From positions 1,657 to 65,656 of the forward strand of contig JAMWBU010000005.1 of assembly GCA_023819255.1 (NCBI GenBank): 64,000 nt of DNA. Direction: 5' to 3'. The notes beneath the pieces are model-generated. The model did no database searches and was not told where the DNA came from. It saw nothing but the letters and a program-made list of their open reading frames with translations. Below, piece after piece: positions 3,330 through 37,073 of this stretch. The DNA is from Candidatus Omnitrophota bacterium. Lineage in GTDB: Bacteria > Ratteibacteria > UBA8468 > B48-G9 > DTJG01. The position numbers and the translations under genes are program-made. Position 1 is the first letter of the stretch; the number at the start of each line of letters is the position of its first letter.

Positions 3330-3457
3330 ATAACTCTCCTTTTAACATACTGCGAAAAGGAACATCTTCGAAAATCAGCTATTTTAATGCTAAAAAACCA
3401 TTCGCCAGAAATCTCTCAGGATATCTTTGTATCTGTGAATTTTTATTACTGTATCTT

Positions 3458-6442: not shown

Positions 6443-6594
6443 CTTTTTCCTTCAATTTATAAAATTATTTTCTATCCTGTTTCTGAAACCTTCGTCATTA
6501 ATGATCTTGAATTAATCCAGAATATTTTTATTCAATATCCATTATATGTTATCCTGAATTAACGAAAACTCAAAGCCAAAGTATAATATAGATT

Positions 6595-7737
6595 ATGAAA
6601 ATCGTCATTTGCCCTGACTCATTCAAAGGCTCTTTCAGCGCGAAAGAGGTTGCAAAAGCCATCCGGAAAGGAATGAAAAGCGTTTTAACGGATGCACAAT
6701 ATTCAATTCTACCAATGGCTGATGGTGGGGAGGGAACCACTGACGCTCTTTTAAATGCCATAGGCGGGAAAAAATATAAAGCACTTGTCTCTGACCCCCT
6801 GGGAAGAAAAATCTGCGCAGAGTATGCAATTCTGTCTGATGGTACAGGCGTAATTGAAATGGCATCAGCAAGTGGATTACCACTATTGAAGCCAGAAGAG
6901 AGAAATCCGCTTCTCACATCAACATATGGCACAGGCCAACTTATTCTGGAGCTCATCAAAAAAAAAGTTAAATCATTCCTGATAGGTGTTGGCGGAAGCG
7001 CAACAGTCGATGGCGGAATGGGAATGGCAAAAGCCCTTGGAGTCAAATTTTATTCAAGGTCAAAAAAAGAATTAAGAGAAGGTGGTGGATTTCTTGGAAA
7101 ACTTGTAAAAATTGACACTTCAGGAATAAATGTTGATGTTTTGAGAACCGATATTACTGTTCTTTGCGATGTTACAAATCCATTGACCGGCAGATACGGA
7201 GCAGCAAAGGTTTTTGCACCGCAAAAAGGCGCCGACATAAAAATGGTGGAGCTCCTTGAAAAAAACCTCCGCCATTATGCGCAAGTCATACGAGAGCAAT
7301 TAAAAAAAGATGTTGAAAACATACCTGGTTCTGGTGCCGCGGGAGGTCTGGCAGCAGGTCTTGTTGCCTTTCTCAATGCAAAAATTAAAGAAGGAAGCAA
7401 ATTTATCGCAGAAAAAATAGAACTCGAAAAACATATAAAGGATGCTGACATTGTTATAACAGGAGAAGGCAGGATCGATGGCCAGGTGAGTTTTGGAAAA
7501 ACCATCATGGCAGTCCTTGAAAAAGCAAAAAGGCATAATGTACCTGTGATTGCCCTCTGTGGAATTAAATCAGGTTCAATCGACGATTTGTACAGAAACG
7601 GACTTACCGCTGTTTTCTCAATTGTACCGGGACCGGTAAAACTTGAAGAATCAATAAAAAACGCCGGTGATTTCATTAAAGATACATCGAGGGAAATCGC
7701 TAGGTTGATAAAATGTTTCTGCAGGAAAAGATTGTAG
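6595..7737 (+). CDS. glxK: Glycerate kinase (GarK/GlxK family)
   Basis: 380 aa. N-terminus MKIVICPDSFKGSFSAKEVAKAI and the overall length and pattern match the glycerate kinase family. Confidence 0.75.
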   Translation: MKIVICPDSFKGSFSAKEVAKAIRKGMKSVLTDAQYSILPMADGGEGTTDALLNAIGGKKYKALVSDPLGRKICAEYAILSDGTGVIEMASASGLPLLKPEERNPLLTSTYGTGQLILELIKKKVKSFLIGVGGSATVDGGMGMAKALGVKFYSRSKKELREGGGFLGKLVKIDTSGINVDVLRTDITVLCDVTNPLTGRYGAAKVFAPQKGADIKMVELLEKNLRHYAQVIREQLKKDVENIPGSGAAGGLAAGLVAFLNAKIKEGSKFIAEKIELEKHIKDADIVITGEGRIDGQVSFGKTIMAVLEKAKRHNVPVIALCGIKSGSIDDLYRNGLTAVFSIVPGPVKLEESIKNAGDFIKDTSREIARLIKCFCRKRL

Positions 7738-10682
7738 AATTCAGAAAATCCTCTTTGTTGACAGGTATTGTTGAAAAATTAAGAAAGGGCCGGTACCCTT
7801 TGTTTTTTTGCAGTAAAAATTATGGATTTTTTTCTTTCCTTGTATCGAGCCTTTGCTGCGATTTAAAGGATAAAATTTTTCTTGTTATCTGCCAGGATCC
7901 TGAAACTGCGGAAATCTTTTATTCAAACATAAAAACCTTTCTGGATAAGTCAGTCATTCTTTTCCCAGAAAAGGATGTTCACCTCCCACCCGACCATCCT
8001 GTACAGGCAAAAGAAATAGAAAGGGTGATGTGCCTGGCAGATTTAATCAAAAAAAATTGCAGCGCTGTCGTCACATCAATTCAGGCAATATCAGTTTTGC
8101 TGCCTGATATATCAAATTTTGTCCAGCACATCATAGAAATAAGGCCCGGACTTGAGATAAAACGTGAAAAACTTATCTCTCGCCTTATTGCCTATGGATA
8201 CGAAGAGGTTGAGGTCGTTGAAAACCCGGGGGAATTTTGTAGAAGAGGCGGAATAATTGATTTTTTCCAGTTCAAAGGTCAGGCAATAAGAATCGTATTT
8301 GTAGGAGACACAGTGGAATCAATAAGAACATTTGATCCGCAAACACAGATGTCAACAGGAAAAATTGAAAACTGCAAGCTTATTTCGTTAAATGAAAGTT
8401 TCATCAGCGCTCAAAATAGGTCAAGTATCTTTGATTACGCAGGAGAAAACAGAATTATCTTTCTGGTAGGTGCAGCTTCTTTTGAAGATAAACACAGGCA
8501 ACTTAAACAGTTGTGCCATCGCTCAATAAAAAAAGATATCATTGAAATGGACATTTTGAAAACGCAAATTTCCCGGTCAATTTCTCTGGAGCTTGAAATC
8601 CCACCGGATGCCGAAATCGACAGAATTGTTGTTTTCCCTGTGGACACTCCTTCAAGATTTGGCTTCACTGGTGAACAATTCGTCTGGAATCCAGTGAAAA
8701 ATGAACAGATTTTTATTGTTGAAGAAAACAAAATTCACAGGGAAAATCTGAAGAAAATTTTAAAAGACCACAATGTTGAGATTGATGACAATCATTTCAT
8801 TGATGGATATCTTTCAGACCCTTTTACCTTTCCTGTGATAAATTTGACGCTTATTAACACTACCACAATCTTTAATGCAAAACCGGGAAGACCTTTTCGC
8901 AGATTTATGGAGTCGCTACCAGTAACTGAAAGAGACCAGCTTTCTGATGGTGATTATGTCGTCCATTACCAGTATGGTATTGCAAAATTTGACGGTTTTG
9001 AAAAAATCGGTCCCGGTGATGAGGAATTCTTAAAGCTTGAGTTTGCAGAAGGCGAAAAACTTTATCTTCCTTTAAGCGATATTGAATTCATCCATAAATA
9101 TGTTGGGACAAAAGAGAATCCGCAATTGAGTAAGCTCGGAAGCAAAACCTGGATAAAGATAAGAAACGGCGTGAAAGAAGGAATTCAGAATATTGCGAGA
9201 GAACTCTATAATCTGTATGTCGAAAGAAAACACGGTAGGGGCTTTGCATACCCTGAAGATGATGAGTTTCAAAGAATGATTGAAGAAAAATTTCCATACC
9301 AGGAAACTGTTGACCAGCTCAGGGCAATTGAGGAAATAAAAAAGGACCTCCAGAGCACGAAAATTATGGACAGACTTCTGTGCGGAGATTCAGGATATGG
9401 AAAAACGGAACTGGCGATTCGCGCTGCTTTCAAGGTAGTTTCCGGAGGAAAACAGGTGGCTCTACTTTGTCCAACAACAGTGCTTGCTCAACAGCATTTA
9501 AGAACATTCAGGCAGAGAATGCATGGATTCCCGGTAAATATTGAAATGCTTTCCAGATTATATTCGACCTCGCGGCAGAAAAAAATACTTGAACAAATCG
9601 CAACAGGTAAAATTGATATCATCATAGGTACACATAGAATCCTGCAGGAAGATGTCTTATTCAAAAATCTCGGACTTATCATTATCGATGAAGAACAGAG
9701 ATTCGGCGTGTTGCACAAAGAAAAACTCAAAACAAAATTCAGAAACATCGAGGTTTTAACCCTCACTGCGACTCCGATTCCGAGAACGTTGTATTTTTCC
9801 CTTTCTGGTTTGAGGGATATCAGTTTGCTTGAAACCCCGCCGGAGGGAAGATTATCTGTTGCCACATATGTTGGAAGATACAGCGATACGATAGTAAGAA
9901 TGGCAATTCTTAATGAGCTTGAAAGACAGGGACAGATTTTTTATCTTCACAATAGAATCTATGACATACACACTGTCAAGAATAAATTGCAACAGATGTT
10001 TCCTGCAACAAACATTGCCATTGCTCACGGAAGAATGAGCGAACAGAATCTCGCTTCTGTTATGGAGGACTTCTCGGATGGAAAAATTCAGATACTTGTT
10101 GCCACAACAATCGTTGAAAACGGACTTGATGTTCCAAACGCAAATACCCTGATTGTTGACAATGCGCATCTTTTTGGTCTGGCTGACCTTTATCAGCTGC
10201 GGGGAAGGGTTGGAAGATACAGGGTAAAGGCATATGCGTATTTTCTCATTCCCGGCCATCTTCCTATATCAGAACAGACAAAGGAAAGATTGAAAGCCCT
10301 CAGCGAACTTGTAAAGCCAGGAAGCGGAATGAAAATTGCGATGAGAGACCTTCAAATTCGAGGAGCAGGAGATATTCTTGGAAAGAAGCAGAGCGGATAT
10401 ATCAATCAGGTTGGATTTGAGCTTTACTGCAGGTTCTGGAAGGAAGTATCTTCTAAATATACTGGCGAAAAGGTGCAAGAGCCACAAACCCGACCGATGC
10501 TGCGCGGTTTTATCGATCCTGAGTGGATCCCAGCGCCTGGATTGAGATTTGAACTTTACAAAAGAATTTCTGAAATACAGGATTTTCAACATGCAAAAAT
10601 AATTCTTGAGGAATTAGAAGATAGATTTGGTCAGATTCCTGAAAAGGTGAAAAAAATGATTTTATCTATATCAACTGTGTGA
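7713..10682 (+). CDS. mfd: Transcription-repair coupling factor Mfd
   Basis: 989 aa. Superfamily-2 helicase motifs (DSGYGKTE, DEEQRFGV, LTLTATPIPRTL), a RecG-like translocase module and a TRCF C-terminal region. Overlaps the glxK end by 25 nt. Confidence 0.85.
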   Translation: MFLQEKIVEFRKSSLLTGIVEKLRKGRYPLFFCSKNYGFFSFLVSSLCCDLKDKIFLVICQDPETAEIFYSNIKTFLDKSVILFPEKDVHLPPDHPVQAKEIERVMCLADLIKKNCSAVVTSIQAISVLLPDISNFVQHIIEIRPGLEIKREKLISRLIAYGYEEVEVVENPGEFCRRGGIIDFFQFKGQAIRIVFVGDTVESIRTFDPQTQMSTGKIENCKLISLNESFISAQNRSSIFDYAGENRIIFLVGAASFEDKHRQLKQLCHRSIKKDIIEMDILKTQISRSISLELEIPPDAEIDRIVVFPVDTPSRFGFTGEQFVWNPVKNEQIFIVEENKIHRENLKKILKDHNVEIDDNHFIDGYLSDPFTFPVINLTLINTTTIFNAKPGRPFRRFMESLPVTERDQLSDGDYVVHYQYGIAKFDGFEKIGPGDEEFLKLEFAEGEKLYLPLSDIEFIHKYVGTKENPQLSKLGSKTWIKIRNGVKEGIQNIARELYNLYVERKHGRGFAYPEDDEFQRMIEEKFPYQETVDQLRAIEEIKKDLQSTKIMDRLLCGDSGYGKTELAIRAAFKVVSGGKQVALLCPTTVLAQQHLRTFRQRMHGFPVNIEMLSRLYSTSRQKKILEQIATGKIDIIIGTHRILQEDVLFKNLGLIIIDEEQRFGVLHKEKLKTKFRNIEVLTLTATPIPRTLYFSLSGLRDISLLETPPEGRLSVATYVGRYSDTIVRMAILNELERQGQIFYLHNRIYDIHTVKNKLQQMFPATNIAIAHGRMSEQNLASVMEDFSDGKIQILVATTIVENGLDVPNANTLIVDNAHLFGLADLYQLRGRVGRYRVKAYAYFLIPGHLPISEQTKERLKALSELVKPGSGMKIAMRDLQIRGAGDILGKKQSGYINQVGFELYCRFWKEVSSKYTGEKVQEPQTRPMLRGFIDPEWIPAPGLRFELYKRISEIQDFQHAKIILEELEDRFGQIPEKVKKMILSISTV

Positions 10683-10806
10683 GATGTTTGTTTTTTCCCA
10701 TCTTTCTCAAAGAGTGGTTGTGCGCGCACCTGCTAGATTTCTTTGACTTAAACAGCAAAATATGCTTTATTAACAACAGATTAAATTTAAACAATGGAGG
10801 TTTAAT

Positions 10807-11769
10807 ATGCAAAAAGTATTCAATTTTTCTCCGTCAGAATTTTTGCCATTTAAGGATGTGAAGGTAATTGAAAGAGTGCGAAAAATCAAAAAAAAGGACA
10901 TCTGCAAGCACCCCAACAAAAATTTTAAAATTCGCGTCATAGAAGATCAGACAGCGTTTGTTTTTGCCTGGGCTCTTCACATTGTTGGCGGAATAAAGAA
11001 ATCCCTTGAAGAAGGGAAACATCATGTAATAATTCTGCCTGCGCCAAATCCACAGTACGCGCTTGTTGCTGAAATGATCAATCAATTAAATATTTCGTGC
11101 AAACATGTACACACTTTTAATATGGATGAGTACGCCGATGAAAATGGAAATACAGCTCCAAAAGATTGGAAAGGCGGTTTCCAGTACTGGATGTGGCACG
11201 ATTTCTTTAATCGAATAAGGCCTGAACTGAGGATGCCTGAAAAACAAATACATTTTCCGAGCACAAAGAATGTCCAGTATTACAGCAAGATGATTGAAGA
11301 TCTCGGCGGAGCAGATATCTGTTATGGAGGCATTGGCTGGTGCGGACACATTGCATTTTTTGAGCCGCATCTCGGAATTGATTATGTCAATAACTTAGAA
11401 GGTTATCTCAAACTCGGCTCAAGGATTGTTGAACTTCATCCAATAACATTGTGTCAGAACAGTCTGTTTGCTGATGCAGGTTGTTCAGGAGACATTGCTG
11501 CGTGCCCGCCAAAAGCCGCAACAATAGGCCCCAGAGACTTGAAGAATTCAAAGCTTGTAAGTTTCTGGAATGGCTTTTCATACGGAGATGTTTCCTGGCA
11601 GAGATTTATCTCACGGCTTGCTGCGCATGGGCCGGTAAGTCCGCTTGTTCCAGCCAGTATCCTTCAAATCCTAAATAGCGAACTTACACTTTCAGGCAGT
11701 GTCGCAGAGGATTGTAAGACAGAAACAGGAGAAAGAAGAATACCCATCCAGTTTCCGGAGAAAAACTAA
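10807..11769 (+). CDS. Glucosamine-6-phosphate deaminase / 6-phosphogluconolactonase (NagB) family protein
   Basis: 320 aa. The FNMDEY motif and surrounding Rossmann-like pattern are typical of NagB/Pgl sugar-phosphate isomerase-deaminases. RBS GGAGG upstream. Confidence 0.6.
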   Translation: MQKVFNFSPSEFLPFKDVKVIERVRKIKKKDICKHPNKNFKIRVIEDQTAFVFAWALHIVGGIKKSLEEGKHHVIILPAPNPQYALVAEMINQLNISCKHVHTFNMDEYADENGNTAPKDWKGGFQYWMWHDFFNRIRPELRMPEKQIHFPSTKNVQYYSKMIEDLGGADICYGGIGWCGHIAFFEPHLGIDYVNNLEGYLKLGSRIVELHPITLCQNSLFADAGCSGDIAACPPKAATIGPRDLKNSKLVSFWNGFSYGDVSWQRFISRLAAHGPVSPLVPASILQILNSELTLSGSVAEDCKTETGERRIPIQFPEKN

Positions 11770-12776
11770 TGAAAAAACATTTGAAAGGAAAAATAATAGA
11801 CGCACACTCTCATGCTGGAGTATCTCTAAAAGCGTATATGAATATGGAATATCCATATGCTGAAACCATTGAAGGCATTGCTTTCAGACAGGAAAGATAC
11901 GGAATTGACGCCAATTTCGTTTTTCCTTTTTCTCCTGACCTTTTTTTTGACATCAATTTCCTTAAAAAAGGTATATGCAAACCATCAGGAAAACCGGTGT
12001 CAGATGTTCCCTATGCAATCGAGAATGAACTCTTATTAAAAGAAATCTATGAGTTCTGCCCTGAATACAATGGAAGATTTATTCCATTTGTCTCTGTGGA
12101 CCCTGTGAGAGAAATTAAAAAGCAGGTTGTGAATATTTTAAAACTTGAAAAAAAATATAGGATATTCGGGATCAAGATTGTCCCTGTGATATGTCAATCA
12201 AGTATTCTTGGCCTGCTCAAAACTGGGAAGGCCTTTATTGAAATAGCAAAAGAAAGAAACTGGCCTTTCACAATACACACAACAGTACATTCAGCAGAAA
12301 ATTTTTCCCACGCATCAGCAGTTTTTAAGGTTATTGAAAAAAATCCGGATGTGAGGTTCTGCCTGGCTCACTGCATTGGATTTGATAAAAATTATCTGAA
12401 AATGGCTGATAGCATGGAAAATGTATGGGTCGATACATCAGCCCTTACAATTCAGGTACAACTTACGAGAGAAAACCATCCCATCGCAGCCCCGGAGAAT
12501 GAAAGGTTTGATGCCGACTATTCAGATCACAAAAAGGTGTTAAGCTCTCTTGTCGATGCCTTCCCTGAAACCATTGTCTGGGGCACTGATACCCCTGCAT
12601 ATTCTTACATAGCAAGAAGAAAACAGGGAAAAACGAAAGATTCATATGTTGAAACATGGCTTAAAGCCACATACAGAGATGAAATTGACGCCTTGAGAAG
12701 TCTTCCGAGAAATCTTATTTTGAAGATTGCGAACGAAAACACGCTCAATTTTTTATTTGGCCTGGCAGATGATTAA
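11769..12776 (+). CDS. Amidohydrolase-2 (TIM-barrel metal-dependent hydrolase) family protein
   Basis: 335 aa. N-terminal IIDAHSHAG metal-binding HxH motif, later HC..F and D residues. Family includes sugar lactonases and decarboxylases. Start overlaps the stop of the upstream gene. Confidence 0.6.
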   Translation: MKKHLKGKIIDAHSHAGVSLKAYMNMEYPYAETIEGIAFRQERYGIDANFVFPFSPDLFFDINFLKKGICKPSGKPVSDVPYAIENELLLKEIYEFCPEYNGRFIPFVSVDPVREIKKQVVNILKLEKKYRIFGIKIVPVICQSSILGLLKTGKAFIEIAKERNWPFTIHTTVHSAENFSHASAVFKVIEKNPDVRFCLAHCIGFDKNYLKMADSMENVWVDTSALTIQVQLTRENHPIAAPENERFDADYSDHKKVLSSLVDAFPETIVWGTDTPAYSYIARRKQGKTKDSYVETWLKATYRDEIDALRSLPRNLILKIANENTLNFLFGLADD

Positions 12777-14034
12777 ACTGAAATACGGAAAAAGTGGTAT
12801 AGAGCTTAATTATCCAGCGAATTTTGTTGTTTTTGAAGGAAATGATATTTCAGGGATTGAAAATCCTGAAGAAAAAATCAGATGGTCATTGAAAAATCCT
12901 GTCGGATGTCCACCACTTTCCAAAATTGTAAGAAAGAAAAGAATTGAAAAAATATGTATTGTTATTTCTGATCACACAAGGGCTGTGCCGAATAAGATCA
13001 TACTTCCTGTAATTATTGAAACTTTGAAATTTGCTGGAATACCTGATGAAAAGATATTCATACTGATAGGAAACGGCACCCATAGAAGCACGACTGAAGA
13101 AGAAAAGATTGAACTTGCTGGCAAAGAAATTGTTGAAAGGTTTCCAATTTATGACCATTGCTCAACAGACGATTCAATGATAGTAAGGATTGAAAACACT
13201 GATTTTTATGTGAACAAAAGATATCTTGATGCAGACCTGAAAATAGTAACAGGTATGATTGAGCCACATTTTTTTGCTGGATTTTCTGGTGGAAGAAAAG
13301 GTGTTTGTCCTGGGATTGCCGGATATCAATCAATAAAAATATTCCATGGAGCCAGGTTTCTCGAACATCCGAATACAAAGCCAGGAATTCTCGAAAACAA
13401 TCCCTGTCATATATTTGCGACTGAATTTGCAAGAAAAACTGGCATTGATTTCCTTGTAAATGTGACAATAAATAAAAAAGGTGAAATTACAGGAATTTTT
13501 TCTGGAGATTTTGAAAAAGCATTTATGAAAGGAGTCGAGTTTTGCAAAAGTTCCACCACAGTTTTCTCTGAGAAAAAATACAAAATTGTCATTACAACAA
13601 ACGGTGGATACCCGCTTGACAGAGATTTTTATCAGTCTGTAAAAGGAATGGTGACCGCCCTTGAAATAGTGGAAGAAGGTGGCATTATCATCAGCGCAGC
13701 AGAATGTTGCGACGGGGTTGGAAGCGCAAATTTCAAAAAACTTCTGTACGGAATGCAGAAAACCGAAGATTTTATGAAAATGATAATGCAGCCAGGTTAT
13801 TTTCATGACCTCCAGTGGGGAGTGCAACCACTGGTTCATGTAATTGACAGGGCACGCGTATTTCTGGTCTCAACCCTTTCAGAAAAAGATGCAAGTTTGT
13901 GCAAAGTAATTCCTTTTAAAGACATAGATCAGGCAATCAGGGCTGCACTTGATGAATATGGAAAAGAAACTGAAATCGCTGTGATACCGGACGGTCCATA
14001 TACAATTGTTCAATTAAAAAAGGAAAACTTATGA
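12727..14034 (+). CDS. LarA-like (lactate racemase N-terminal domain, DUF2088) nickel-pincer-cofactor-dependent 2-hydroxyacid racemase/epimerase homolog
   Basis: 435 aa. Conserved DHTR and GNGTHR motifs of the LarA family N-domain and overall LarA-like length. An upstream in-frame ATG overlaps the previous gene; the true start may be a downstream Met. Confidence 0.6.
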   Translation: MRTKTRSIFYLAWQMIKLKYGKSGIELNYPANFVVFEGNDISGIENPEEKIRWSLKNPVGCPPLSKIVRKKRIEKICIVISDHTRAVPNKIILPVIIETLKFAGIPDEKIFILIGNGTHRSTTEEEKIELAGKEIVERFPIYDHCSTDDSMIVRIENTDFYVNKRYLDADLKIVTGMIEPHFFAGFSGGRKGVCPGIAGYQSIKIFHGARFLEHPNTKPGILENNPCHIFATEFARKTGIDFLVNVTINKKGEITGIFSGDFEKAFMKGVEFCKSSTTVFSEKKYKIVITTNGGYPLDRDFYQSVKGMVTALEIVEEGGIIISAAECCDGVGSANFKKLLYGMQKTEDFMKMIMQPGYFHDLQWGVQPLVHVIDRARVFLVSTLSEKDASLCKVIPFKDIDQAIRAALDEYGKETEIAVIPDGPYTIVQLKKENL

Positions 14035-32582: not shown

Positions 32583-33053
32583 CTACCTTGGCCTTACCCT
32601 TGCTGTGCCATCAGAAGCATAGATTACCTGAACTGAATCACCTGGCTTGAAATTGTCCTGATCGGTCTTTTCCTGAATAATCGCGACTGTTCTTCCATCC
32701 TCAAGTTTTACGGTAATTTCAAGACCGACCTTTGTGGTAACCTTTTTTTCGATAGCGCCGCCCGCGACTGCTCCTGCCACTCCGCCAATAATTGTGGCTG
32801 CTGTTCTTCCTCTTCCCTCGCCAATGCTCTGACCAACAGCGGCTCCTGCAGCAGCGCCAGTAATGGTTCCAGCAGGACCTGCCTGACCTTCAATGGTAAC
32901 CTGGTTCACTGTCACAACTGTGCCGTAGTAAACTGTCTGCATTTTTCTTGCTTCATCCCTTTGATAGCTGGATCCGCTCATAGGCGTCTGGCAACCTGAA
33001 AACAGCACAATCAACGCCAGAAGCAAAATTCCTGCTGAAAAAAACTTTTTCAT
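32583..33053 (-). CDS. Glycine-zipper (SlyB/17-kDa antigen-like) outer-membrane lipoprotein
   Basis: 156 aa. Lipoprotein signal (LFSGCQTP) and a Gly/Ala zipper (AGTITGAAAGAAVGQSIGEGRG...IIGGVAGAVAGGAI). Confidence 0.55.
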   Translation of the reverse strand: MKKFFSAGILLLALIVLFSGCQTPMSGSSYQRDEARKMQTVYYGTVVTVNQVTIEGQAGPAGTITGAAAGAAVGQSIGEGRGRTAATIIGGVAGAVAGGAIEKKVTTKVGLEITVKLEDGRTVAIIQEKTDQDNFKPGDSVQVIYASDGTARVRPR

Positions 33054-33193
33054 TTTCCCTCCCTGTCAGTTTTCGAATTCCCTCATTTATTATATTCACT
33101 TTCATAAATTTTGACAATCGAAATGAAGAAAAGTTTATTAAAAAATACAATTCAGAACCTGCCAGCCTTATTGATTGGAAGTGCCAAAGGGCG

Positions 33194-33287
33194 GGCGGTG
33201 TGTATTTGAAAAAATCCGAACCGATTTCATTAACGGGCTCGGCGGGCGGACTTCCCCCCGAAGAACCCCCCTTCCGCCCGCCTCGCC
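33194..33287. repeat. IR1-L: 94-bp perfect inverted repeat, left copy (GC-rich, internal GGCGGGCGGA...TCCGCCCGCC palindrome)
   Basis: Exact reverse complement of 35020..35113, verified base by base. About 60% GC in an AT-rich context. A 7-nt imperfect extension runs to 33295. Confidence 0.9.
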
Positions 33288-33301
33288 CGAAAGCGAAAAG
33301 G

Positions 33302-33338
33302 ACGATTTCAAGTTTTTCTTTGGCGGCAAATTCTTTTA
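33302..33338. repeat. 37-nt inverted copy of the serine recombinase 5' coding region (codons about 27-39, KEFAAKEKLEIV)
   Basis: Exact reverse complement of 35336..35372 inside the recombinase gene. Sits 14 nt from IR1-L and 2 nt past the endonuclease stop. Confidence 0.85.
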
Positions 33339-33340
33339 TT

Positions 33341-33835
33341 TTATTTAGTATCTTGATAAATAACTTTTCCATTTTGCTTTGCCCATTCTTCAGAAAAACC
33401 GACATGGGATATTTTATTACTACTCCGGTCTAACTGACGTTCGGTCTCTTTCAATAAAACCCTTGGTTCAATTTCATAAATTATTTTTACGCGTAAAGGG
33501 TCTTTTTTGTAAAAAATTGCTAAATAAATCATCTTATTTCTGGTAATTCTTAAAAGCGATTCGGCGCGTTTATCAGCTGGTTCCTTGAACATTCTATCTA
33601 ATTGACCCGTGCCACCTTCATAACAAGTAAGATACTCATACTTAATATTCGGATTGTTTCTATCTCTGGCATCTGCATCTCTTTTTGAGGCTATTACCTC
33701 ATGCCCTAGTATTTCAGAAACTATCATTTCTTTTACTAACCCCGGTTGTAAAATATTTGGTATTCCTACTTGTAATGCTAACTCTTGGGCTCTTTTAACC
33801 AACCTTATAATTTCAGATATTATTTTTTGTATCAT
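33341..33835 (-). CDS. Type II restriction endonuclease, PvuII-like
   Basis: 164 aa. Aligns along its length with R.PvuII as I recall it: AQELALQVGIPNILQ vs QDLALKHGINDIFQ, a DA.D....YEY catalytic-region motif, and IYLAIFY / IEP segments near the C-terminus. Follows the MTase gene after 9 nt. Confidence 0.5.
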   Translation of the reverse strand: MIQKIISEIIRLVKRAQELALQVGIPNILQPGLVKEMIVSEILGHEVIASKRDADARDRNNPNIKYEYLTCYEGGTGQLDRMFKEPADKRAESLLRITRNKMIYLAIFYKKDPLRVKIIYEIEPRVLLKETERQLDRSSNKISHVGFSEEWAKQNGKVIYQDTK

Positions 33836-33844
33836 AATAATTCG

Positions 33845-34636
33845 CTAAAATAATCGAGAAGACAGATTTAATTCTATGTCATTTAATCTTTTTTGGCAAA
33901 TATTAACCATATCGGAATTTATTTCAATCCCTATAAAATTTCTTTTTAATTCTTTACAAACCACCAATGTTGTCCCAGTACCTGCAAATGGATCAAGAAC
34001 TAAATCTCCTTCATTTGAGCTAGCTTTTACAATTCTTTCGATCAATTTTTTGGGTTTTTGAATTGTATTCAAAAAATCCTTCGATAACAATTCCTTAGAT
34101 TTATAGGTAAGTTGTTTAATATCACCCCAAACATCTCCCGGATTTTTACCTTTTTCATTAAATTTTGTCTTTGGAAATTTCCCATTAATTACTGATGGTA
34201 CTTTTTCACACCTTCTCCTGTGCTCTAATTCAACTAATTGAGGAACGCGAATCAAATCTAGGTTAAAGACTTTTGCTTTCCCTTTGGTAAAATAAGCAAT
34301 AATATCATAGTTATTTGTAAAAGTTGTTCTTCCTTGCCCCAGTCTGCTGGGCTGATACCATACGATTTTAGAATTCAAGGTTAAGAATGGTCTATAATCA
34401 ATAAAATCTATACAATCTGGCTTTCCAAAAAGATATAGTGCGCCTCCCTTTTTCAAGACACGCGAAAACATTTTTATCAATCCTAAATTATATTCTTGAA
34501 TATTCCTTAACCTATCCCAACCGTTTTTAGTAACTCCATAAGGACCATCACATACTATTAAATCGATTGATTCATCTTCAATTTCATCTAACAACTTCCA
34601 ACAATCACCTTTGTAAATTTTATTAACCTCTATCAT
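33845..34636 (-). CDS. DNA methyltransferase (beta-class N4-cytosine/N6-adenine; motif IV before motif I)
   Basis: 263 aa. GDCWKLL, DLIVCDGPYGV (motif IV variant of D/SPPY) and LDPFAGTGTT (motif I). Typical Type II M-subunit size. Confidence 0.8.
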   Translation of the reverse strand: MIEVNKIYKGDCWKLLDEIEDESIDLIVCDGPYGVTKNGWDRLRNIQEYNLGLIKMFSRVLKKGGALYLFGKPDCIDFIDYRPFLTLNSKIVWYQPSRLGQGRTTFTNNYDIIAYFTKGKAKVFNLDLIRVPQLVELEHRRRCEKVPSVINGKFPKTKFNEKGKNPGDVWGDIKQLTYKSKELLSKDFLNTIQKPKKLIERIVKASSNEGDLVLDPFAGTGTTLVVCKELKRNFIGIEINSDMVNICQKRLNDIELNLSSRLF

Positions 34637-34638
34637 AT

Positions 34639-34854
34639 TTATTTCTTGATCAATTCTTCTATTGTTATATTTAATGTTTTTGCAATTTTCGCCATAACAA
34701 AAACTGACGGCTTTTTAATGACTCCGGTTTCAATTTTGGTAAGGGTGGTATAAGGAATATCCGCTTTCCTAGCGAATTCGTCTTGGGAAAGTTCAAGTTT
34801 AAGCCGCAACGCCTTTATTTTCTTGCCCAATTTATTTCCTTGATTATTTTCCAT
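34639..34854 (-). CDS. Controller (C) protein of R-M system, XRE-family helix-turn-helix
   Basis: 71 aa. LRLKLELSQDEFARKADIPYTTLTKIETG is a canonical XRE HTH. 2-nt gap to the MTase gene (C-M-R co-oriented). Confidence 0.65.
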   Translation of the reverse strand: MENNQGNKLGKKIKALRLKLELSQDEFARKADIPYTTLTKIETGVIKKPSVFVMAKIAKTLNITIEELIKK

Positions 34855-35019
34855 AATTTGATAACATTATATTGTTTTGCTATAATTCTATACAAATATA
34901 TGATAACAAATAAAAGTAAAACAATCAAGAATAAGAAAAGCCCGCTTCTGGCCAAAATAAAGTTCGAGCCGACATTTTTTCAAGTTCTGTGGCGGTTTGC
35001 CTTTCCGCTTCCGCTTTCA

Positions 35020-35113
35020 GGCGAGGCGGGCGGAAGGGGGGTTCTTCGGGGGGAAGTCCGCCCGCCGAGCCCGTTAATGAAATCGGTTCGGATTTTTTCA
35101 AATACACACCGCC
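35020..35113. repeat. IR1-R: 94-bp perfect inverted repeat, right copy
   Basis: Reverse complement of 33194..33287. Flanked on the inner side by an 18/20 inverted match (34984-35003) to recombinase nt 35388-35407. Confidence 0.9.
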
Positions 35114-35149
35114 AAACGGTAAAAGTTCTTGCTGGCTCGCCCTCTGCGA
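35109..35149. repeat. IR2-L: 41-bp perfect inverted repeat, left copy (inverted copy of the tRNA-Ser 3' end plus flank)
   Basis: Exact reverse complement of 36662..36702. Overlaps IR1-R by the 5-nt CCGCC/GGCGG core. Lies about 105 bp upstream of the recombinase start. Confidence 0.9.
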
Positions 35150-35253
35150 GAGCGCAAAGTGCGCTCCAGCCGATTTTGAAGCTGAAATTTAATTTTTTGT
35201 CTTTGTTCCGCCGAAGGCGGAACGCCAGAAGCGAGCTTTTCTAAATTAAGACC

Positions 35254-36975
35254 ATGAAATACTTTATCTATTGCAGAAAATCAACGGATTCAGAAGAAAG
35301 ACAAGTTTTGAGTATTGAAGCTCAGCTTGCTGAGCTAAAAGAATTTGCCGCCAAAGAAAAACTTGAAATCGTTGCCTCGCTTTGTGAGGCGCAAACCGCC
35401 AAAGAACCTGGCCGAAAAATTTTCGGAGAAATGTTAGACCGGATTTGCGCTGGCGAAGCCAGCGGAATTTTGGCTTGGCACCCGGACAGATTAGCAAGAA
35501 ATTCAATAGACGGCGGAAAAATAATTTATCTGCTGGACACGGGAAAGATTAAAGATTTGAAGTTCCCGACATTTTGGTTTGAGAATACGCCGCAGGGGAA
35601 ATTCATGCTTTCCATCGCTTTTGGACAAAGCAAATACTATGTGGACAATTTAAGCGAGAACATCAAACGGGGACACCGCCAAAAACTGCGAAAAGGAATT
35701 TGGCCGGGCTTCGCGCCGCTTGGCTATCTTAATAATCACAGAACAAAGGAAGTAGATTTAGACAGAGATAAAGCACCCTTTATCAAAAAAGCATTTGAGC
35801 TTTACGCTACTGGCGACTACACATTAAAAGCCATAAGGCAATTTTTGGCGGATAGCGGAATAACGAGTTATAGAAAGAAACCGCTTTCTGTTTCCTGTGT
35901 CCAGCGAATGCTCAAAAATCATTTTTATTACGGAGTATTTAAGTTTAACAATGAAGTTTATCAGGGGAGCCATGGGCCAATTATTTCCAAGAAACTTTTT
36001 GATTCTGTTCAACAAGTGATGAATAATCGAGGCAAGAAGAAAAGAAAGAGAAAACACGAGTTTGCTTTTTCCGGTTTTATGCGTTGCGGAAATTGCGGCT
36101 GTATGATAACCGCCGAAAAACAAAAAGGGCATAACTACTATCGATGCACCAAGAAAAAGCAAAAATGCGAGGAAAAGTATTTAAGAGAAGAAAGTCTTGT
36201 TGAACAGATGAGAGATTTTATTCAAAAAGTTTCTTTGCCTGATGATTGGGCGGAAAATATGCTTGCCGAGTTAGATAAAGAAAAAGAGCAAGCTAAAAAA
36301 GATGGAGAAAATTTTGTTCAAAATCTCCAAAATCAAAAAACCGAAGTCGAACAGAAAATTGAAAAGCTTTTAGACCTCTACATCGCCGGCGGAGCTTTGA
36401 CGCTTGAAGAATATCAAACCAAGAAACAAAAACTGCTCAACGAAAAACTGGATATTGAGCAAAAAATCCGAGATTTTGAACAATCGGGGAATAATTGGCT
36501 CGAACCGATGAAAGAAATGATTTTTGAGGCGAAACAAGCCAAAATTCTATTGTCGCAAGGCGACAATCAGCAAATCATAACATTTCTAAAAAATGTCGGC
36601 TCGAACTTTATTTTGAAAGACAAAAAATTAAATTTCCGCTTCAAAATCGGCTGGCGAGCCATCGCAGAGGGCGAGCCAGCAAGAACTTTTACCGTTTGGC
36701 GGAGGGGGTGGGATTCGAACCCACGTCCCGATTACTCGAGAACACGCTTTCCAAGCGTGCGCACTCGGCCACTATGCGACCCCTCCACTGGGATTCAATT
36801 ACTGGCTGGCTTGTCTTGCAAACAGCTTTGCCGGAAATTCATAACCTGCTTTGATACGTTTTTCAAGAAGCTTTTTTGCTCTTCTGTTGAGTCGTTCAAA
36901 TGGAATAACGCCTTTTTCAAATTCTTTAAGCTGCTGTCTCGCAACACAACTACGCCTGTGATAGTGTTTCGCTAA
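35254..36975 (+). CDS. Large serine recombinase (resolvase/integrase family); 3' end of ORF runs antisense through tRNA-Ser and is probably not native
   Basis: N-terminal catalytic domain YCRKSTDSEERQVLSIEAQ (Ser nucleophile), resolvase core, zinc-ribbon (CGNCGCMITAEK...YYRCTKK) and coiled-coil (EQKIEKLLDLYIAGG) typical of large serine recombinases. No in-frame stop until 36975. Residues about 470-512 (..TFTVWRRGWDSNPRPDY..) are encoded on the strand opposite IR2-R and tRNA-Ser. Confidence 0.8.
   Translation: MKYFIYCRKSTDSEERQVLSIEAQLAELKEFAAKEKLEIVASLCEAQTAKEPGRKIFGEMLDRICAGEASGILAWHPDRLARNSIDGGKIIYLLDTGKIKDLKFPTFWFENTPQGKFMLSIAFGQSKYYVDNLSENIKRGHRQKLRKGIWPGFAPLGYLNNHRTKEVDLDRDKAPFIKKAFELYATGDYTLKAIRQFLADSGITSYRKKPLSVSCVQRMLKNHFYYGVFKFNNEVYQGSHGPIISKKLFDSVQQVMNNRGKKKRKRKHEFAFSGFMRCGNCGCMITAEKQKGHNYYRCTKKKQKCEEKYLREESLVEQMRDFIQKVSLPDDWAENMLAELDKEKEQAKKDGENFVQNLQNQKTEVEQKIEKLLDLYIAGGALTLEEYQTKKQKLLNEKLDIEQKIRDFEQSGNNWLEPMKEMIFEAKQAKILLSQGDNQQIITFLKNVGSNFILKDKKLNFRFKIGWRAIAEGEPARTFTVWRRGWDSNPRPDYSRTRFPSVRTRPLCDPSTGIQLLAGLSCKQLCRKFITCFDTFFKKLFCSSVESFKWNNAFFKFFKLLSRNTTTPVIVFR
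36662..36702. repeat. IR2-R: 41-bp perfect inverted repeat, right copy (covers the last 6 nt of tRNA-Ser incl. CCA plus 35 nt of 3' flank)
   Basis: Reverse complement of 35109..35149, verified base by base. Lies inside the recombinase reading frame. Confidence 0.9.
36697..36786 (-). tRNA. tRNA-Ser (anticodon GGA), type II with long variable arm, CCA encoded
   Basis: Manual fold of the reverse complement: acceptor GGAGGGG/CCCCTCC, D-stem GCA/TGC, anticodon stem CACGC/GCGTG with loop TTGGAAA (anticodon GGA), 18-nt variable arm, T-stem GTGGG/CCCAC with TTCGAAT loop, discriminator G, CCA. Confidence 0.85.
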
Positions 36976-36996
36976 TAATTTCTGCTGTTTTTTCAT
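36799..36996 (-). CDS. Hypothetical small basic protein
   Basis: 65 aa, Lys/Arg-rich. Good RBS (GGAGG 6 nt upstream of ATG). No recognisable family. Overlaps the implausible tail of the recombinase ORF on the other strand. Confidence 0.3.
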   Translation of the reverse strand: MKKQQKLLAKHYHRRSCVARQQLKEFEKGVIPFERLNRRAKKLLEKRIKAGYEFPAKLFARQASQ

Positions 36997-37073
36997 CCAT
37001 AACCTCCGCGTAATCCCTCAATTGATATTTTACTTGAATAGATAAGTTGATGTCAAAAAAACAGTTGATTTTT

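What the first reader, a model, noticed from the sequence alone, without database searches (positions are those of the whole stretch)
33194..36786. R-M cassette and serine recombinase wired together by two nested perfect inverted-repeat pairs ending in a tRNA-Ser
- A 94-bp perfect inverted repeat (33194-33287 / 35020-35113) brackets a 1.7 kb segment holding exactly the C-M-R genes. The R stop is 2 nt from the inner repeat-associated sequence.
- A second, 41-bp perfect inverted repeat (35109-35149 / 36662-36702) brackets the large serine recombinase gene. It overlaps IR1 by a CCGCC/GGCGG core. Its right copy covers the last 6 nt (incl. CCA) of tRNA-Ser(GGA) plus 35 nt of flank.
- A 37-nt exact inverted copy of recombinase codons 27-39 (33302-33338) lies beside IR1-L, and an 18/20 inverted match to recombinase nt 35388-35407 lies beside IR1-R (34984-35003).
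- The R-M genes are visibly AT-rich and the repeats GC-rich relative to the host.
- This architecture is not a standard IS or prophage att arrangement. It looks like a recombinase-driven invertible (shufflon-like) or recently rearranged mobile module in which both the R-M cassette and the recombinase gene sit on invertible segments. That could give phase-variable restriction or self-limiting mobility.
Basis: seen in the sequence. Interest (0 to 1): 0.85.

Follow-up and report, generated by a model that had tools for sequence, protein, structure and literature searches.

The report
Mobile restriction cassette inserted at tRNA-Ser
A 3.5-kb mobile element carrying a restriction-modification defence system has inserted at the end of a serine tRNA gene; it belongs to a very widespread family, which I could not find described, whose members all keep a mirror-image spare copy of their own docking site.

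Summary
Conspecific assemblies hold the empty site. The element is therefore a 3,504-bp insertion (33199-36702) at the 3' end of tRNA-Ser(GGA), with the 5-bp core GGCGG duplicated.

It is not a one-off rearrangement. The same layout recurs in about 40 independent loci whose large serine recombinases (LSRs) are 55-93% identical, at 12 or more tRNA types and in several phyla.

- **The repeats are att-site arms.** IR1 is the P' arm and IR2 is the P arm. Each occurs once at an element end (attL, attR) and once in a complete, inverted attP between the cargo operon and the recombinase gene.
- **The core tracks the target.** It co-varies with the 3' end of the target tRNA.
- **The P' arm mimics the tRNA T-loop**, placed 5 bp further out. 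That is the published attP/attB rule for LSRs.
- **The "C" gene is element backbone.** M and R (PvuII-like here) sit in a swappable defence-cargo slot.
- **Orientation is essentially fixed**: 140 loci against 3 for the recombinase, 42 against 1 for the cargo. Shufflon-like phase variation is not supported, although rare inversion-derived variants exist.

What the internal inverted attP does is unresolved. I found no published description.

The parts
33194..33198 (.). attL core GGCGG. It is the left copy of the 5-bp target duplication. Host DNA lies to its left.
   Evidence: The empty site in L220, L221 and L224 matches window 33034-33198 and 36698-37017, and the two matches overlap in GGCGG.
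33194..33298 (+). IR1-L, the P' arm of attP (called A in this report). It holds a T-loop mimic, TCCGAAC, at 33215-33221 and a G+C-rich hairpin at 33225-33298.
   Evidence: repeat; motif and hairpin conserved in about 30 elements.
33302..33338 (+). Bf: an exact inverted copy of recombinase nt 83-119. It is a conserved backbone fragment at the distal end of the cargo slot.
   Evidence: Present next to IR1-L in 22 of 69 distinct loci, with a mean 97% identity to the locus's own recombinase.
33341..33835 (-). Cargo gene R: a PvuII-family restriction endonuclease, 164 aa.
   Evidence: It has no Pfam hit of its own. A homologue 73% identical (P0225) carries PF09225 (Endonuc-PvuII), and there is a weak PDB hint to PvuII.
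33845..34636 (-). Cargo gene M: an N4/N6 DNA methyltransferase, 263 aa.
   Evidence: PF01555, E = 3.6e-44; NCBIfam adenine-specific DNA methyltransferase.
34639..34854 (-). Xre-type HTH regulator, 71 aa. It is the first gene of the cargo operon and part of the element backbone, not of the R-M system.
   Evidence: PF01381. It is about 90% identical to the HTH of L001, whose M and R are different. Window/L001 homology runs from 34633 to 36786, and the cargo is unrelated.
34855..34933 (.). Divergent promoter region between the HTH gene and the recombinase side.
   Evidence: Consensus scan: plus strand TTGATA-17-TATAAT with TG (34858-34886, 11 of 12); minus strand 34928-34900 (9 of 12). These are predictions only.
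34934..35000 (+). Boxes C, D and E. They are inverted copies of the recombinase upstream box (35224-35242), recombinase nt 1335-1362 and recombinase nt 138-157.
   Evidence: C and D are conserved in position family-wide and match their own partner at 97-99%.
35009..35204 (+). Internal, complete, inverted attP: IR1-R (P' arm, 35009-35113), core CCGCC (35109-35113) and IR2-L (P arm copy, 35109-35204).
   Evidence: IR1-R meets IR2-L at the tRNA-derived core; the two overlap by a few nt (typically 3-8) in all but two of the 35 loci with both repeats.
35205..35242 (+). Hairpin GTTCCGCCGAAGGCGGAAC followed by box C', immediately upstream of the recombinase start codon.
   Evidence: Sequence; the C/C' pairing.
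35254..36702 (+). Large serine recombinase, 483 codons up to the crossover core. The ORF then runs on, antisense through the tRNA, to 36975 (573 aa as called).
   Evidence: Resolvase, Recombinase and Zn_ribbon_recom domains. Relatives end at residues 470-483 plus tails that depend on the integration site.
36616..36702 (+). IR2-R, the P arm of attP. It also encodes the last 29 codons of the recombinase. The attR core GGCGG is at 36698-36702.
36697..36786 (-). tRNA-Ser(GGA), the B' half of the target. Its T-loop, TTCGAAC, is at 36714-36720. The element supplies the encoded CCA.
   Evidence: ARAGORN; Rfam 56.9 bits. The empty site encodes CCC in place of CCA.

Best explanation
Window 33199-36702 is one integrated copy of a 3.5-kb integrative element.

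**How it integrates.** Its large serine recombinase joins the element's attP to the 3' end of a tRNA gene. In this report P means the last ~90 nt of the recombinase gene, and P' means the ~105-nt arm A.
- attP: P arm - core - P' arm.
- attB: host flank - GGCGG - tRNA acceptor and T-arm.
- attL: host - GGCGG - P' arm. This is IR1-L.
- attR: P arm - GGCGG - tRNA. This is IR2-R.

**Why there are two repeat pairs.** Every family member also carries a second, complete attP in inverted orientation (IR1-R plus IR2-L). It lies between the divergently transcribed Xre-cargo operon and the recombinase gene. That is why two inverted-repeat pairs appear and overlap in the core.

**Site recognition.** The enzyme recognises the tRNA T-loop (xTCGAAC, 17 nt from the TGG that encodes CCA). 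It recognises a mimic of that motif in the P' arm 5 bp further out, as serine integrases do for attB versus attP.

**Gene roles.**
- The Xre gene belongs to the element. By inference, it is a repressor that is absent when the element enters a new cell. That absence would let the recombinase and the cargo operon fire once, with M expressed before R.
- M and R occupy a cargo slot. In relatives the slot holds other defence genes.

**The internal attP.** It is inherited, and a DNA-level process keeps it identical to the terminal arms. My best guess is a cis-acting role: a binding site for the integrase, plus hairpin insulators directly upstream of its own gene, which keep the recombinase silent while it faces the tRNA. 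Recombination at this site happens only rarely. When it does, it turns the recombinase gene round, and a deletion then yields a simpler derivative (X-type).

**Shown:** the insertion, the att anatomy, the family conservation, the modular cargo, the fixed orientation.
**Inferred:** regulation by the Xre protein, and the function of the internal attP.
For: - **Empty site.** Three conspecific assemblies carry ...CCAAAGGGCG-GGCGG-AGGGGGTGGGATTCGAACC..., with flanks 99.4-100% identical. The two flank matches overlap in GGCGG. The occupied form is also present in GCA_023818575.1.
- **Domains.** Resolvase, Recombinase and Zn-ribbon domains are present.
- **Family size.** At least 574 related loci occur in species-representative genomes.
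- **Conserved architecture.** 64 loci have IR2 and 35 have IR1 plus IR2, which meet at a core; in all but two they overlap there, by 1-17 nt (typically 3-8). Within an element, IR2 arms and boxes are 97-99% identical on average, and IR1 arms were 87-100% in the loci listed.
- **Core co-variation.** The core follows the target tRNA: Ser TGGCGG, Gln TGGCTG, Leu TGGTGC, Asn TGGCTC, Trp/Glu TGGCAG, Ala/Val/Tyr TGGTGG.
- **T-loop mimic.** xxCGAAC lies at +22 in the P' arm, or is readable there, in nearly all of 23 distinct elements (TTTGAAC in one, and one could not be scored). The tRNA T-loop lies at +17. The 5-bp shift of the zinc-ribbon-domain motif between attP and attB is the published rule (PMC3783163).
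- **Backbone versus cargo.** Window/L001 homology covers A plus Bf, and HTH through to the tRNA. M and R are unrelated.
- **Cargo in relatives.** Type II, IIG and III R-M, Mrr, GmrSD-HNH, HD, radical SAM and Ltp.
- **Orientation census.**
- **Derivatives.** X-type at two different tRNA-Ser genes and one tRNA-Asn. A recombinase-less copy carrying the same C-M-R cassette.
- **Tandem arrays.** Arrays at a single tRNA.
- **Mismatch spectrum.** Arm mismatches show no G.U bias: IR2 44 versus 46, IR1 22 versus 26.
Against: - Nothing has been tested experimentally.
- If the excised circle holds two identical attP sites, integration should give two orientations in equal numbers. Only one is seen, and I can explain this only by invoking selection.
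- No recombination directionality factor (the accessory protein that lets serine integrases excise) is recognisable, so excision is unexplained.
- An operator or insulator role needs only ~25 bp per half-site. It does not explain ~100-nt arms kept identical.
- The P arm lacks the T-loop-like motif, so the attP is asymmetric in a way not described for model integrases.
- Promoters are consensus predictions only.
- In this window IR2 is perfect for only 41 nt although the insertion is recent (identical flanks). Perfect long arms are therefore not needed for the last move, which leaves their conservation unexplained.
Confidence: 0.8

Rival explanations
1. Programmed inversion switch. The integrase recombines the internal attP with attR, or with attL. 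Because the exchanged arms are identical, the products are again an attP-like and an attB-like site, so the recombinase segment (or the cargo) can flip back and forth. This would give on/off control of the integrase or phase-variable restriction.
For: - Three cores lie in alternating orientation, with two adjacent bracketed segments.
- X-type variants need an inversion of the recombinase segment or a D/D' inversion.
- One locus has an inverted cargo (L060).
- Many contigs break inside the internal attP.
- attR-like sites are reused as targets in tandem arrays.
Against: - Consensus orientation is the same in 140 of 143 recombinase cases and 42 of 43 cargo cases, across independent assemblies, hosts and samples.
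- Inverting the cargo would not change its own promoter, which lies inside the segment.
- Contig breaks are equally well explained by multi-copy elements and tandem arrays.
Confidence: 0.15
2. Historical relic. The layout arose once, for example by nested insertion of one element into the recombinase gene of another followed by deletions. It is simply inherited. The host's homologous recombination keeps the arms alike by gene conversion, and the internal attP has no function.
For: - The fragments Bf, E, D and C are pieces of a recombinase gene in its natural cyclic order.
- Four junctions (D'|G', D'|C', hp|C', hp'|G') form a reciprocal set.
- Nested insertions into recombinase genes do occur (L094).
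- The mismatch spectrum is neutral.
- X-type and recombinase-less derivatives show the layout is dispensable.
Against: - The layout persists down to 55% protein identity with near-perfect arms.
- Short boxes of 19-37 nt also track their partners. That is hard to maintain by gene conversion alone.
- Simpler X-type forms are rare (3 of 84), although they arise repeatedly.
Confidence: 0.3
3. RNA-level self-silencing. The recombinase mRNA starts in the divergent promoter region. Its ~360-nt leader (boxes C, D and E, the P' arm copy and the P arm copy) pairs with the ribosome-binding region, nt 138-157 and the last 115 nt of the same mRNA, which blocks translation.
For: - A strong promoter-like site at 34858-34886 points towards the recombinase through these segments.
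- All the complementary pieces lie on the same strand.
Against: - Mismatches between arms show no excess of G.U-compatible changes: IR2 44 versus 46, C 4 versus 4.
- Perfect 87-nt duplexes are not needed for such control.
- IR1 and Bf cannot be explained this way.
Confidence: 0.07
4. Assembly artefact: a chimeric inverted duplication.
For: Inverted patchworks can arise from amplification chimeras.
Against: - The same architecture appears in dozens of independent assemblies, including a complete genome (AP024682.1).
- A second assembly of the same species has the same left junction.
- The precise empty site fits a real insertion.
Confidence: 0.01

Closest known systems
Large serine recombinase (serine integrase) integration modules, e.g. 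phiC31, Bxb1, Listeria A118/LI, SPbeta SprA
   Same: - Resolvase, Recombinase and zinc-ribbon domains.
- Short crossover core duplicated at both ends.
- The distal recognition motif lies 5 bp further from the crossover in attP than in attB (PMC3783163).
   Different: - The target is the 3' end of tRNA genes, which was reported as not known for serine integrases (PMC7192596).
- attP overlaps the 3' end of the integrase gene.
- Only one half of each site carries the recognisable motif.
- No directionality factor gene is seen.
- A second, complete, inverted attP is kept inside the element.
SCC elements with Ccr recombinases (staphylococcal cassette chromosome)
   Same: - Small cargo cassettes are moved by large serine recombinases into the 3' end of one conserved gene.
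- The target survives insertion, so tandem composite arrays build up.
- The best NCBIfam hit is CcrB, though far below its cutoff.
- What I state about SCC biology is from my own knowledge.
   Different: - Different target (rlmH versus tRNA).
- No internal inverted att copy.
- Different cargo.
- Only weak sequence relationship (93.9 bits against a cutoff of 900).
Tycheposons (tRNA-targeting cargo elements of marine bacteria; bioRxiv 10.1101/2020.12.28.424599)
   Same: - Small cargo-carrying elements specific for particular tRNA genes.
- They accumulate next to the tRNA.
- A minority use large serine recombinases.
   Different: - Mostly tyrosine recombinases.
- Many carry replication genes.
- The nested inverted att architecture is not described for them.
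DNA-inversion systems and shufflons (Hin/Gin/Pin, R64 shufflon, phase-variable hsdS loci)
   Same: Segments bracketed by inverted repeats lie next to a site-specific recombinase gene, and adjacent segments share a middle site.
   Different: - Orientation is fixed across about 40-140 independent loci.
- The repeats are ~100-nt att arms, not ~26-bp crossover sites.
- The enzyme is an integrase-type large serine recombinase.
- The unit as a whole is an insertion with an empty site.
C-protein-controlled type II R-M systems (PvuII type)
   Same: A small HTH gene heads an operon with a methyltransferase and a PvuII-family endonuclease.
   Different: The HTH gene stays with the recombinase backbone when the R-M genes are exchanged for unrelated cargo.
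Yeast 2-micron plasmid (FLP/FRT within long inverted repeats)
   Same: In the inferred circular form, the element would have one pair of ~200-nt inverted repeats, each containing a recombination site, dividing the circle into two unique segments.
   Different: - No replication functions.
- A serine rather than a tyrosine recombinase.
- No sign of flip-flop isomers. This is a resemblance only.

Membership tests
Large serine recombinase integrative element | Recombinase with an N-terminal resolvase catalytic domain, a recombinase domain and a zinc-ribbon domain | tested here: met
   PF00239 (3.3e-18), PF07508 (8.3e-17) and PF13408 (6.7e-09). PDB sequence hits to SPbeta and A118 integrases.
Large serine recombinase integrative element | Precise insertion with a short duplicated crossover core, and an uninterrupted attB in relatives | tested here: met
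   Empty site in L220, L221 and L224. The 5-bp GGCGG is shared by both junctions.
Large serine recombinase integrative element | attP and attB carry the same distal motif, 5 bp closer to the crossover in attB | tested here: met
   xTCGAAC lies at +17 in the tRNA and at +22 in the P' arm (or is readable there) in nearly all of 23 distinct elements; met for one half-site only.
Large serine recombinase integrative element | Recombination directionality factor for excision | tested here: inconclusive
   The only other backbone gene is a 71-aa Xre HTH protein. These factors have no common signature, so sequence cannot settle this.
Large serine recombinase integrative element | A circular excised form with a P-core-P' junction | tested here: inconclusive
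   A strict junction pattern gave 0 hits in metagenome contigs. A looser pattern found one such junction (L133), but a tandem array explains it equally well.
Invertible-segment or shufflon phase-variation system | Inverted repeats bracket the segment | tested here: met
Invertible-segment or shufflon phase-variation system | Both orientations occur in nature | tested here: not met
   Recombinase convergent with the tRNA in 140 cases against 3 the other way. Cargo in the standard orientation in 42 against 1. Minor subpopulations cannot be seen in assemblies.
Invertible-segment or shufflon phase-variation system | Inversion changes the expression or sequence of a gene | tested here: not met
   The cargo operon carries its own promoter region inside the bracketed segment. 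Read-through of the recombinase in the flipped state stops after about 50 codons.
C-controlled type II restriction-modification system | A methyltransferase and a cognate endonuclease | tested here: met
   M: PF01555. R: homologue P0225 carries PF09225, the PvuII endonuclease family. Specificity and activity were not tested.
C-controlled type II restriction-modification system | The controller gene is part of the R-M unit and travels with it | tested here: not met
   The HTH gene is conserved with the recombinase backbone next to unrelated cargo. It does accompany M-R in the recombinase-less copy L096.

The most novel reading that the evidence does not exclude
The internal inverted attP and attR share an identical P arm. 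An ordinary attP x attB-type reaction between them would flip the integrase gene and regenerate both substrates. This would be a reversible switch that needs no directionality factor.

- In the resting state (the only one seen) the gene faces the tRNA and is silent.
- In the flipped state the gene sits behind the tRNA promoter. It makes integrase until it flips back, excises the element, or decays by a 230-bp deletion into the simpler X-type form.

The element would thus carry a self-limiting, DNA-encoded controller of its own mobility.
Probability: 0.15. Interest if true: 0.85.

Novelty: new variant of a known kind. Interest (0 to 1): 0.72.

Why it matters
- **A target thought unusual for this enzyme class.** In 2020, serine integrases were reported as not known to use tRNA genes. 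Here a large family does so systematically, at a dozen or more tRNA types. Its attP arm imitates the tRNA T-loop with the 5-bp offset predicted from structural work.
- **Ready-made att pairs.** The family offers natural attP/attB pairs with simple, readable specificity rules. These could be useful for integrase engineering.
- **A vehicle for defence genes across phyla.** These 3-6-kb elements have no transfer genes, yet copies with 84-93% identical recombinases occur in genomes assigned to Patescibacteria, Omnitrophota, Marinimicrobia, Nitrospira and Brocadia, and a recombinase-less derivative in Bacteroidota. They deliver restriction and other defence genes behind a built-in regulator. This may be a main route by which small-genome bacteria acquire defence.
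- **An unexplained design feature.** The inverted spare attP, conserved and kept sequence-identical to the ends, has no counterpart in model integrase systems.

Tried and rejected
- **Exact-protein look-ups** of M and of the 573-aa recombinase ORF: not on record.
- **Viral contigs:** only two truncated hits, so the element is not phage-borne.
- **Strict pattern for the circle or flipped junction** in metagenome contigs: 0 hits. The relaxed pattern gave 120 or more hits. Nearly all were tRNA junctions or tandem arrays.
- **Dispersed repeat (MITE) idea for the 94-nt repeat:** there is no other copy in the window. In relatives it always sits in the same two places.
- **Recombinase-HTH fusion in the flipped state:** the frame closes after the P' arm. 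The 559-aa fusion P0036 belongs to the X-type deletion variant.
- **RNA-pairing explanation:** no G.U bias among arm mismatches.
- **Rfam:** only the tRNA.
- **Literature:** seven full-text searches found no description of this family or layout.
- **Evolutionary origin of fragments Bf, C, D and E:** I tried to derive it from dimers, nested insertions and inversions. None gave a unique path. I report only that they form a recombinase gene in cyclic order.

Full report
**1.

- IR1 (33194-33287 / 35020-35113) is a perfect 94-nt inverted repeat. It extends to 105 nt at 98%.
- IR2 (35109-35149 / 36662-36702) is a perfect 41-nt inverted repeat. It extends with one 9-nt indel to 35109-35204 / 36616-36702.
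- The two pairs overlap in CCGCC (35109-35113).
- 33302-33338 is an exact inverted copy of recombinase nt 83-119. 34981-35000 matches the inverse of nt 138-157 at 18 of 20.
34953-34980 is an exact inverse of recombinase nt 1335-1362. 34934-34952 matches the inverse of the box just upstream of the recombinase start at 18 of 19.
- tRNA-Ser(GGA) is at 36697-36786 on the minus strand.
- The 105-nt repeat has no further copy in the window.

**2. Genes**

On the minus strand:
- a 164-aa protein (33341-33835);
- an N4/N6 DNA methyltransferase (33845-34636);
- a 71-aa Xre-type HTH protein (34639-34854).

On the plus strand is a large serine recombinase with Resolvase, Recombinase and zinc-ribbon domains.

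The 164-aa protein has no Pfam hit of its own. A homologue 73% identical carries the PvuII endonuclease family. An identical protein is annotated in a Candidatus Omnitrophica MAG, which identifies the host.

The recombinase ORF as called (573 aa) runs antisense through the tRNA. Relatives align only to residues 470-483, and their tails depend on what lies beyond the insertion point.

**3. It is an insertion, and its ends are now exact**

A look-up of the flanking lipoprotein found three conspecific contigs (L220, L221, L224). In them the lipoprotein gene and the tRNA are adjacent.
- The empty site reads ...GGAAGTGCCAAAGGGCG-GGCGG-AGGGGGTGGGATTCGAACC....
- It matches window 33034-33198 and 36698-37017. 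The match is 100% in L221.
- The two matches overlap in GGCGG.

The element is therefore 3,504 bp (33199-36702) with a 5-bp core duplication. It is polymorphic within the species, and a second assembly has the occupied form. In the empty site the tRNA gene encodes CCC after the discriminator base. The element supplies an encoded CCA.

**4. The layout is a family trait, not a local rearrangement**

The recombinase has thousands of relatives, with 84-93% identical copies in genomes named as Brocadia, Paceibacterota and Nitrospira and more distant ones in Saganbacteria, Thermodesulfovibrionales and others. At least 574 loci occur in species-representative genomes, mostly Patescibacteria.

In L001 (a Marinimicrobia contig of 201 kb, recombinase 93% identical) and L006 (84%) I found the same parts:
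- a 108-110-nt IR1 around the cargo;
- an 87-nt perfect IR2 around the recombinase gene;
- the same 28-nt, 20-nt and 37-nt inverted fragments;
- a tRNA-Ser at the recombinase 3' end.

A scripted survey gave these counts:
- IR2 in 64 loci.
- IR1 plus IR2 in 35 loci (about 30 distinct elements), where they meet at a core; in all but two they overlap there, by 1-17 nt (typically 3-8).
- This holds down to 55% recombinase identity.
- Targets include tRNA-Ser, Leu, Gln, Asn, Arg, Tyr, Lys, Val, Ala, Trp, Glu and Pro genes.

**5. The repeats are att-site arms**

Written in one orientation, the three sites of the window are:
- left end: host - GGCGG - TGTGTATTTGAAAAAATCCGAACC...
- internal site (reverse complement): ...CTTTTACCGTTT - GGCGG - TGTGTATTTGAAAAAATCCGAACC...
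- right end: ...CTTTTACCGTTT - GGCGG - AGGGGGTGGGATTCGAACC (tRNA)

That is attL, attP and attR.

Across the family the core follows the target tRNA's terminal bases: TGGCGG for Ser, TGGCTG for Gln, TGGTGC for Leu and Lys, TGGCTC for Asn, TGGCAG for Trp and Glu, TGGTGG for Ala, Val and Tyr.

In nearly all of 23 distinct elements the P' arm carries xxCGAAC 22 nt from the TGG (TTTGAAC in one; one could not be scored). The tRNA T-loop (TTCGAAC or a close variant) lies at 17 nt. A 5-bp inward shift of the zinc-ribbon-domain motif in attB relative to attP is exactly what Rutherford et al. showed for the Listeria integrase (PMC3783163).

The P arm has no such motif, and the host-side half of attB is arbitrary. 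By inference, recognition rests on one half of each site.

**6. Backbone and cargo**

Window/L001 homology covers 33195-33318 (the P' arm and part of the 37-nt fragment) and 34633-36786 (the HTH stop codon to the tRNA, 88%). Everything between is unrelated: PvuII-like M and R here, and a CfrBI-type endonuclease, a HEAT-repeat methyltransferase and Mrr there.

The HTH protein is about 90% identical in the two elements and tracks the recombinase in other relatives. It is the element's regulator, not the R-M system's own controller.

Cargo in other members:
- type II, IIG (Eco57I/MmeI-like) and III R-M systems;
- Mrr, GmrSD-HNH and HNH nucleases;
- HD-domain and radical SAM proteins;
- an Ltp-type lipoprotein;
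- several unknowns.

The box upstream of the recombinase (35224-35242) recurs, in the same orientation relative to its gene, upstream of the HTH promoter (34934-34952). The two boxes co-vary between elements: 97% identical within an element and 37% between elements. I read these boxes as candidate operators. That is an inference.

**7. Orientation is fixed, but derivatives exist**

Among distinct recombinase copies:
- 140 have a convergent tRNA at the 3' end, and 19 have none.
- 81 have no tRNA upstream, and 3 have a co-directional tRNA upstream.
- The HTH gene is divergent and adjacent to the recombinase in 40 loci, plus 2 at a greater distance. It is inverted in 1 locus (L060) and downstream in 1.

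The three exceptions with an upstream tRNA (L089, L024, L062) are a simpler "X-type": tRNA - core - P arm copy - recombinase - HTH - cargo - P' arm. It has no internal attP and has the junction D'|C'. This form is what results if the recombinase segment inverts and the 230 bp between the resulting direct 28-nt repeats are lost.

Other derivatives:
- **Recombinase-less copy.** L096/L097 (Bacteroidota) keep tRNA-Ser(GGA), 33 nt of the P arm, HTH-M-R (R 90% identical to the window's) and the P' arm.
- **Tandem arrays.** In about 14 of 81 metagenome hits the recombinase 3' end abuts the P'-type arm of another element. A complete Parcubacteria genome has three or more units in a row at one tRNA-Ser.
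- **Nested insertion.** One lineage inserts into the recombinase gene of other elements. This produces the ~900-aa ORFs seen in the protein search.

**8. The unresolved part: why keep an inverted attP?**

- **Arms evolve in concert.** Arms are 97-100% identical within an element, while the P arm is only about 34% identical in register between elements.
- **The process acts on DNA.** Mismatches between arms show no excess of G.U-compatible changes. This argues for DNA-level homogenisation and against selection on RNA pairing.
- **The fixed orientation is a puzzle.** A circle with two identical attP sites should integrate in two orientations, and only one is found. I can explain this only by selection. 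The other orientation puts the integrase gene behind the tRNA promoter while a reactive attP is still present.
- **Long perfect arms are not required to move.** The window's IR2 is perfect for only 41 nt although the flanks are identical to the empty site.

My preferred reading is a cis-acting role. The internal site would bind the integrase and carry hairpin insulators directly upstream of its gene, and recombination there would be rare. I hold this with modest confidence. The self-flipping switch and the "inherited relic" readings remain open.

**9. Comparison with what is known**

The enzyme and the att logic are those of serine integrases. The following are not described in what I could search:
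- the tRNA target;
- the T-loop mimic in the P' arm;
- the overlap of attP with the integrase gene;
- the regulator-led defence cargo slot;
- above all, the conserved inverted attP.

Mageeney et al. (2020) stated that use of a tRNA gene by a serine integrase had not been reported (PMC7192596). Tycheposons are the nearest ecological analogue. SCC elements are the nearest for tandem build-up, but that comparison rests on my own knowledge.

**10. Limits**

- Everything here is comparative sequence analysis.
- Host assignments of MAG contigs can be wrong.
- Assemblies show only majority orientations.
- Promoters are consensus matches.
- Excision, circular forms and the transfer route were not observed.

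Noticed in passing
window 36703-36975 (+): The recombinase ORF stays open for 90 codons beyond the crossover core, antisense through the tRNA and the neighbouring 65-aa ORF. Database relatives therefore have arbitrary C-termini (483-530 aa) set by the integration site. In a circular form the tail would instead be encoded by the P' arm and run to 33348.
   Followed up: partly
L094 5660-10365 (also P0097, P0103, P0107, P0111, P0114-P0117): One element is inserted inside the recombinase gene of another, at the conserved FGQSKYY(V/I)DNLSEN region. The result is a ~900-aa read-through ORF. Many such long ORFs exist, which suggests a lineage that targets the integrase genes of related elements.
   Followed up: partly
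L083 (AP024682.1, complete Parcubacteria genome) 2440-13175: At least three family elements, or their remnants, lie in tandem at a single tRNA-Ser(GGA). The unit nearest the tRNA has the more degraded IR1 (79%). This bears on whether newcomers enter at attR or at attL.
   Followed up: partly
L096/L097 6771-8667 (Bacteroidota): A recombinase-less copy carries the same HTH-M-R cassette (R 90% identical) at a tRNA-Ser(GGA). It keeps 33 nt of the P arm and a full P' arm, so it looks like a fixed, immobilised R-M system.
   Followed up: yes
window 35391-35410 and 34981-35000: The recombinase coding sequence at nt 138-157 contains CCGCCAAA, the same 8 nt as the core plus the start of the P arm. This pseudo-core lies next to the point where the cargo-side recombinase fragments are broken (nt 119 / 138).
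   Followed up: no
L113 1-665 / 3742-4406: A 4.4-kb metagenome contig has 665-nt perfect terminal inverted repeats, each containing a recombinase 3' end. It is either two head-to-head elements or an assembly fold-back.
   Followed up: no
L098 60-410, L099 4-354 (IMG/VR contigs): The only viral-contig hits are the first 117 codons of a 77% identical recombinase, followed by unrelated DNA.
   Followed up: no
L220/L221 5760-6000 versus window 36697-36702: The uninterrupted tRNA-Ser(GGA) gene encodes CCC after the discriminator base. After insertion the gene encodes CCA, so the element changes how the tRNA 3' end is made.
   Followed up: partly
L002, L004, L005, L008, L014, L019, L020, L022, L025 and others: A striking share of contigs start 80-300 nt upstream of the recombinase gene, inside the internal attP, and many contigs are only 1.5-1.9 kb (recombinase alone). 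This is consistent with multi-copy elements, or with the same recombinase unit being linked to different cargo in one sample.
   Followed up: partly
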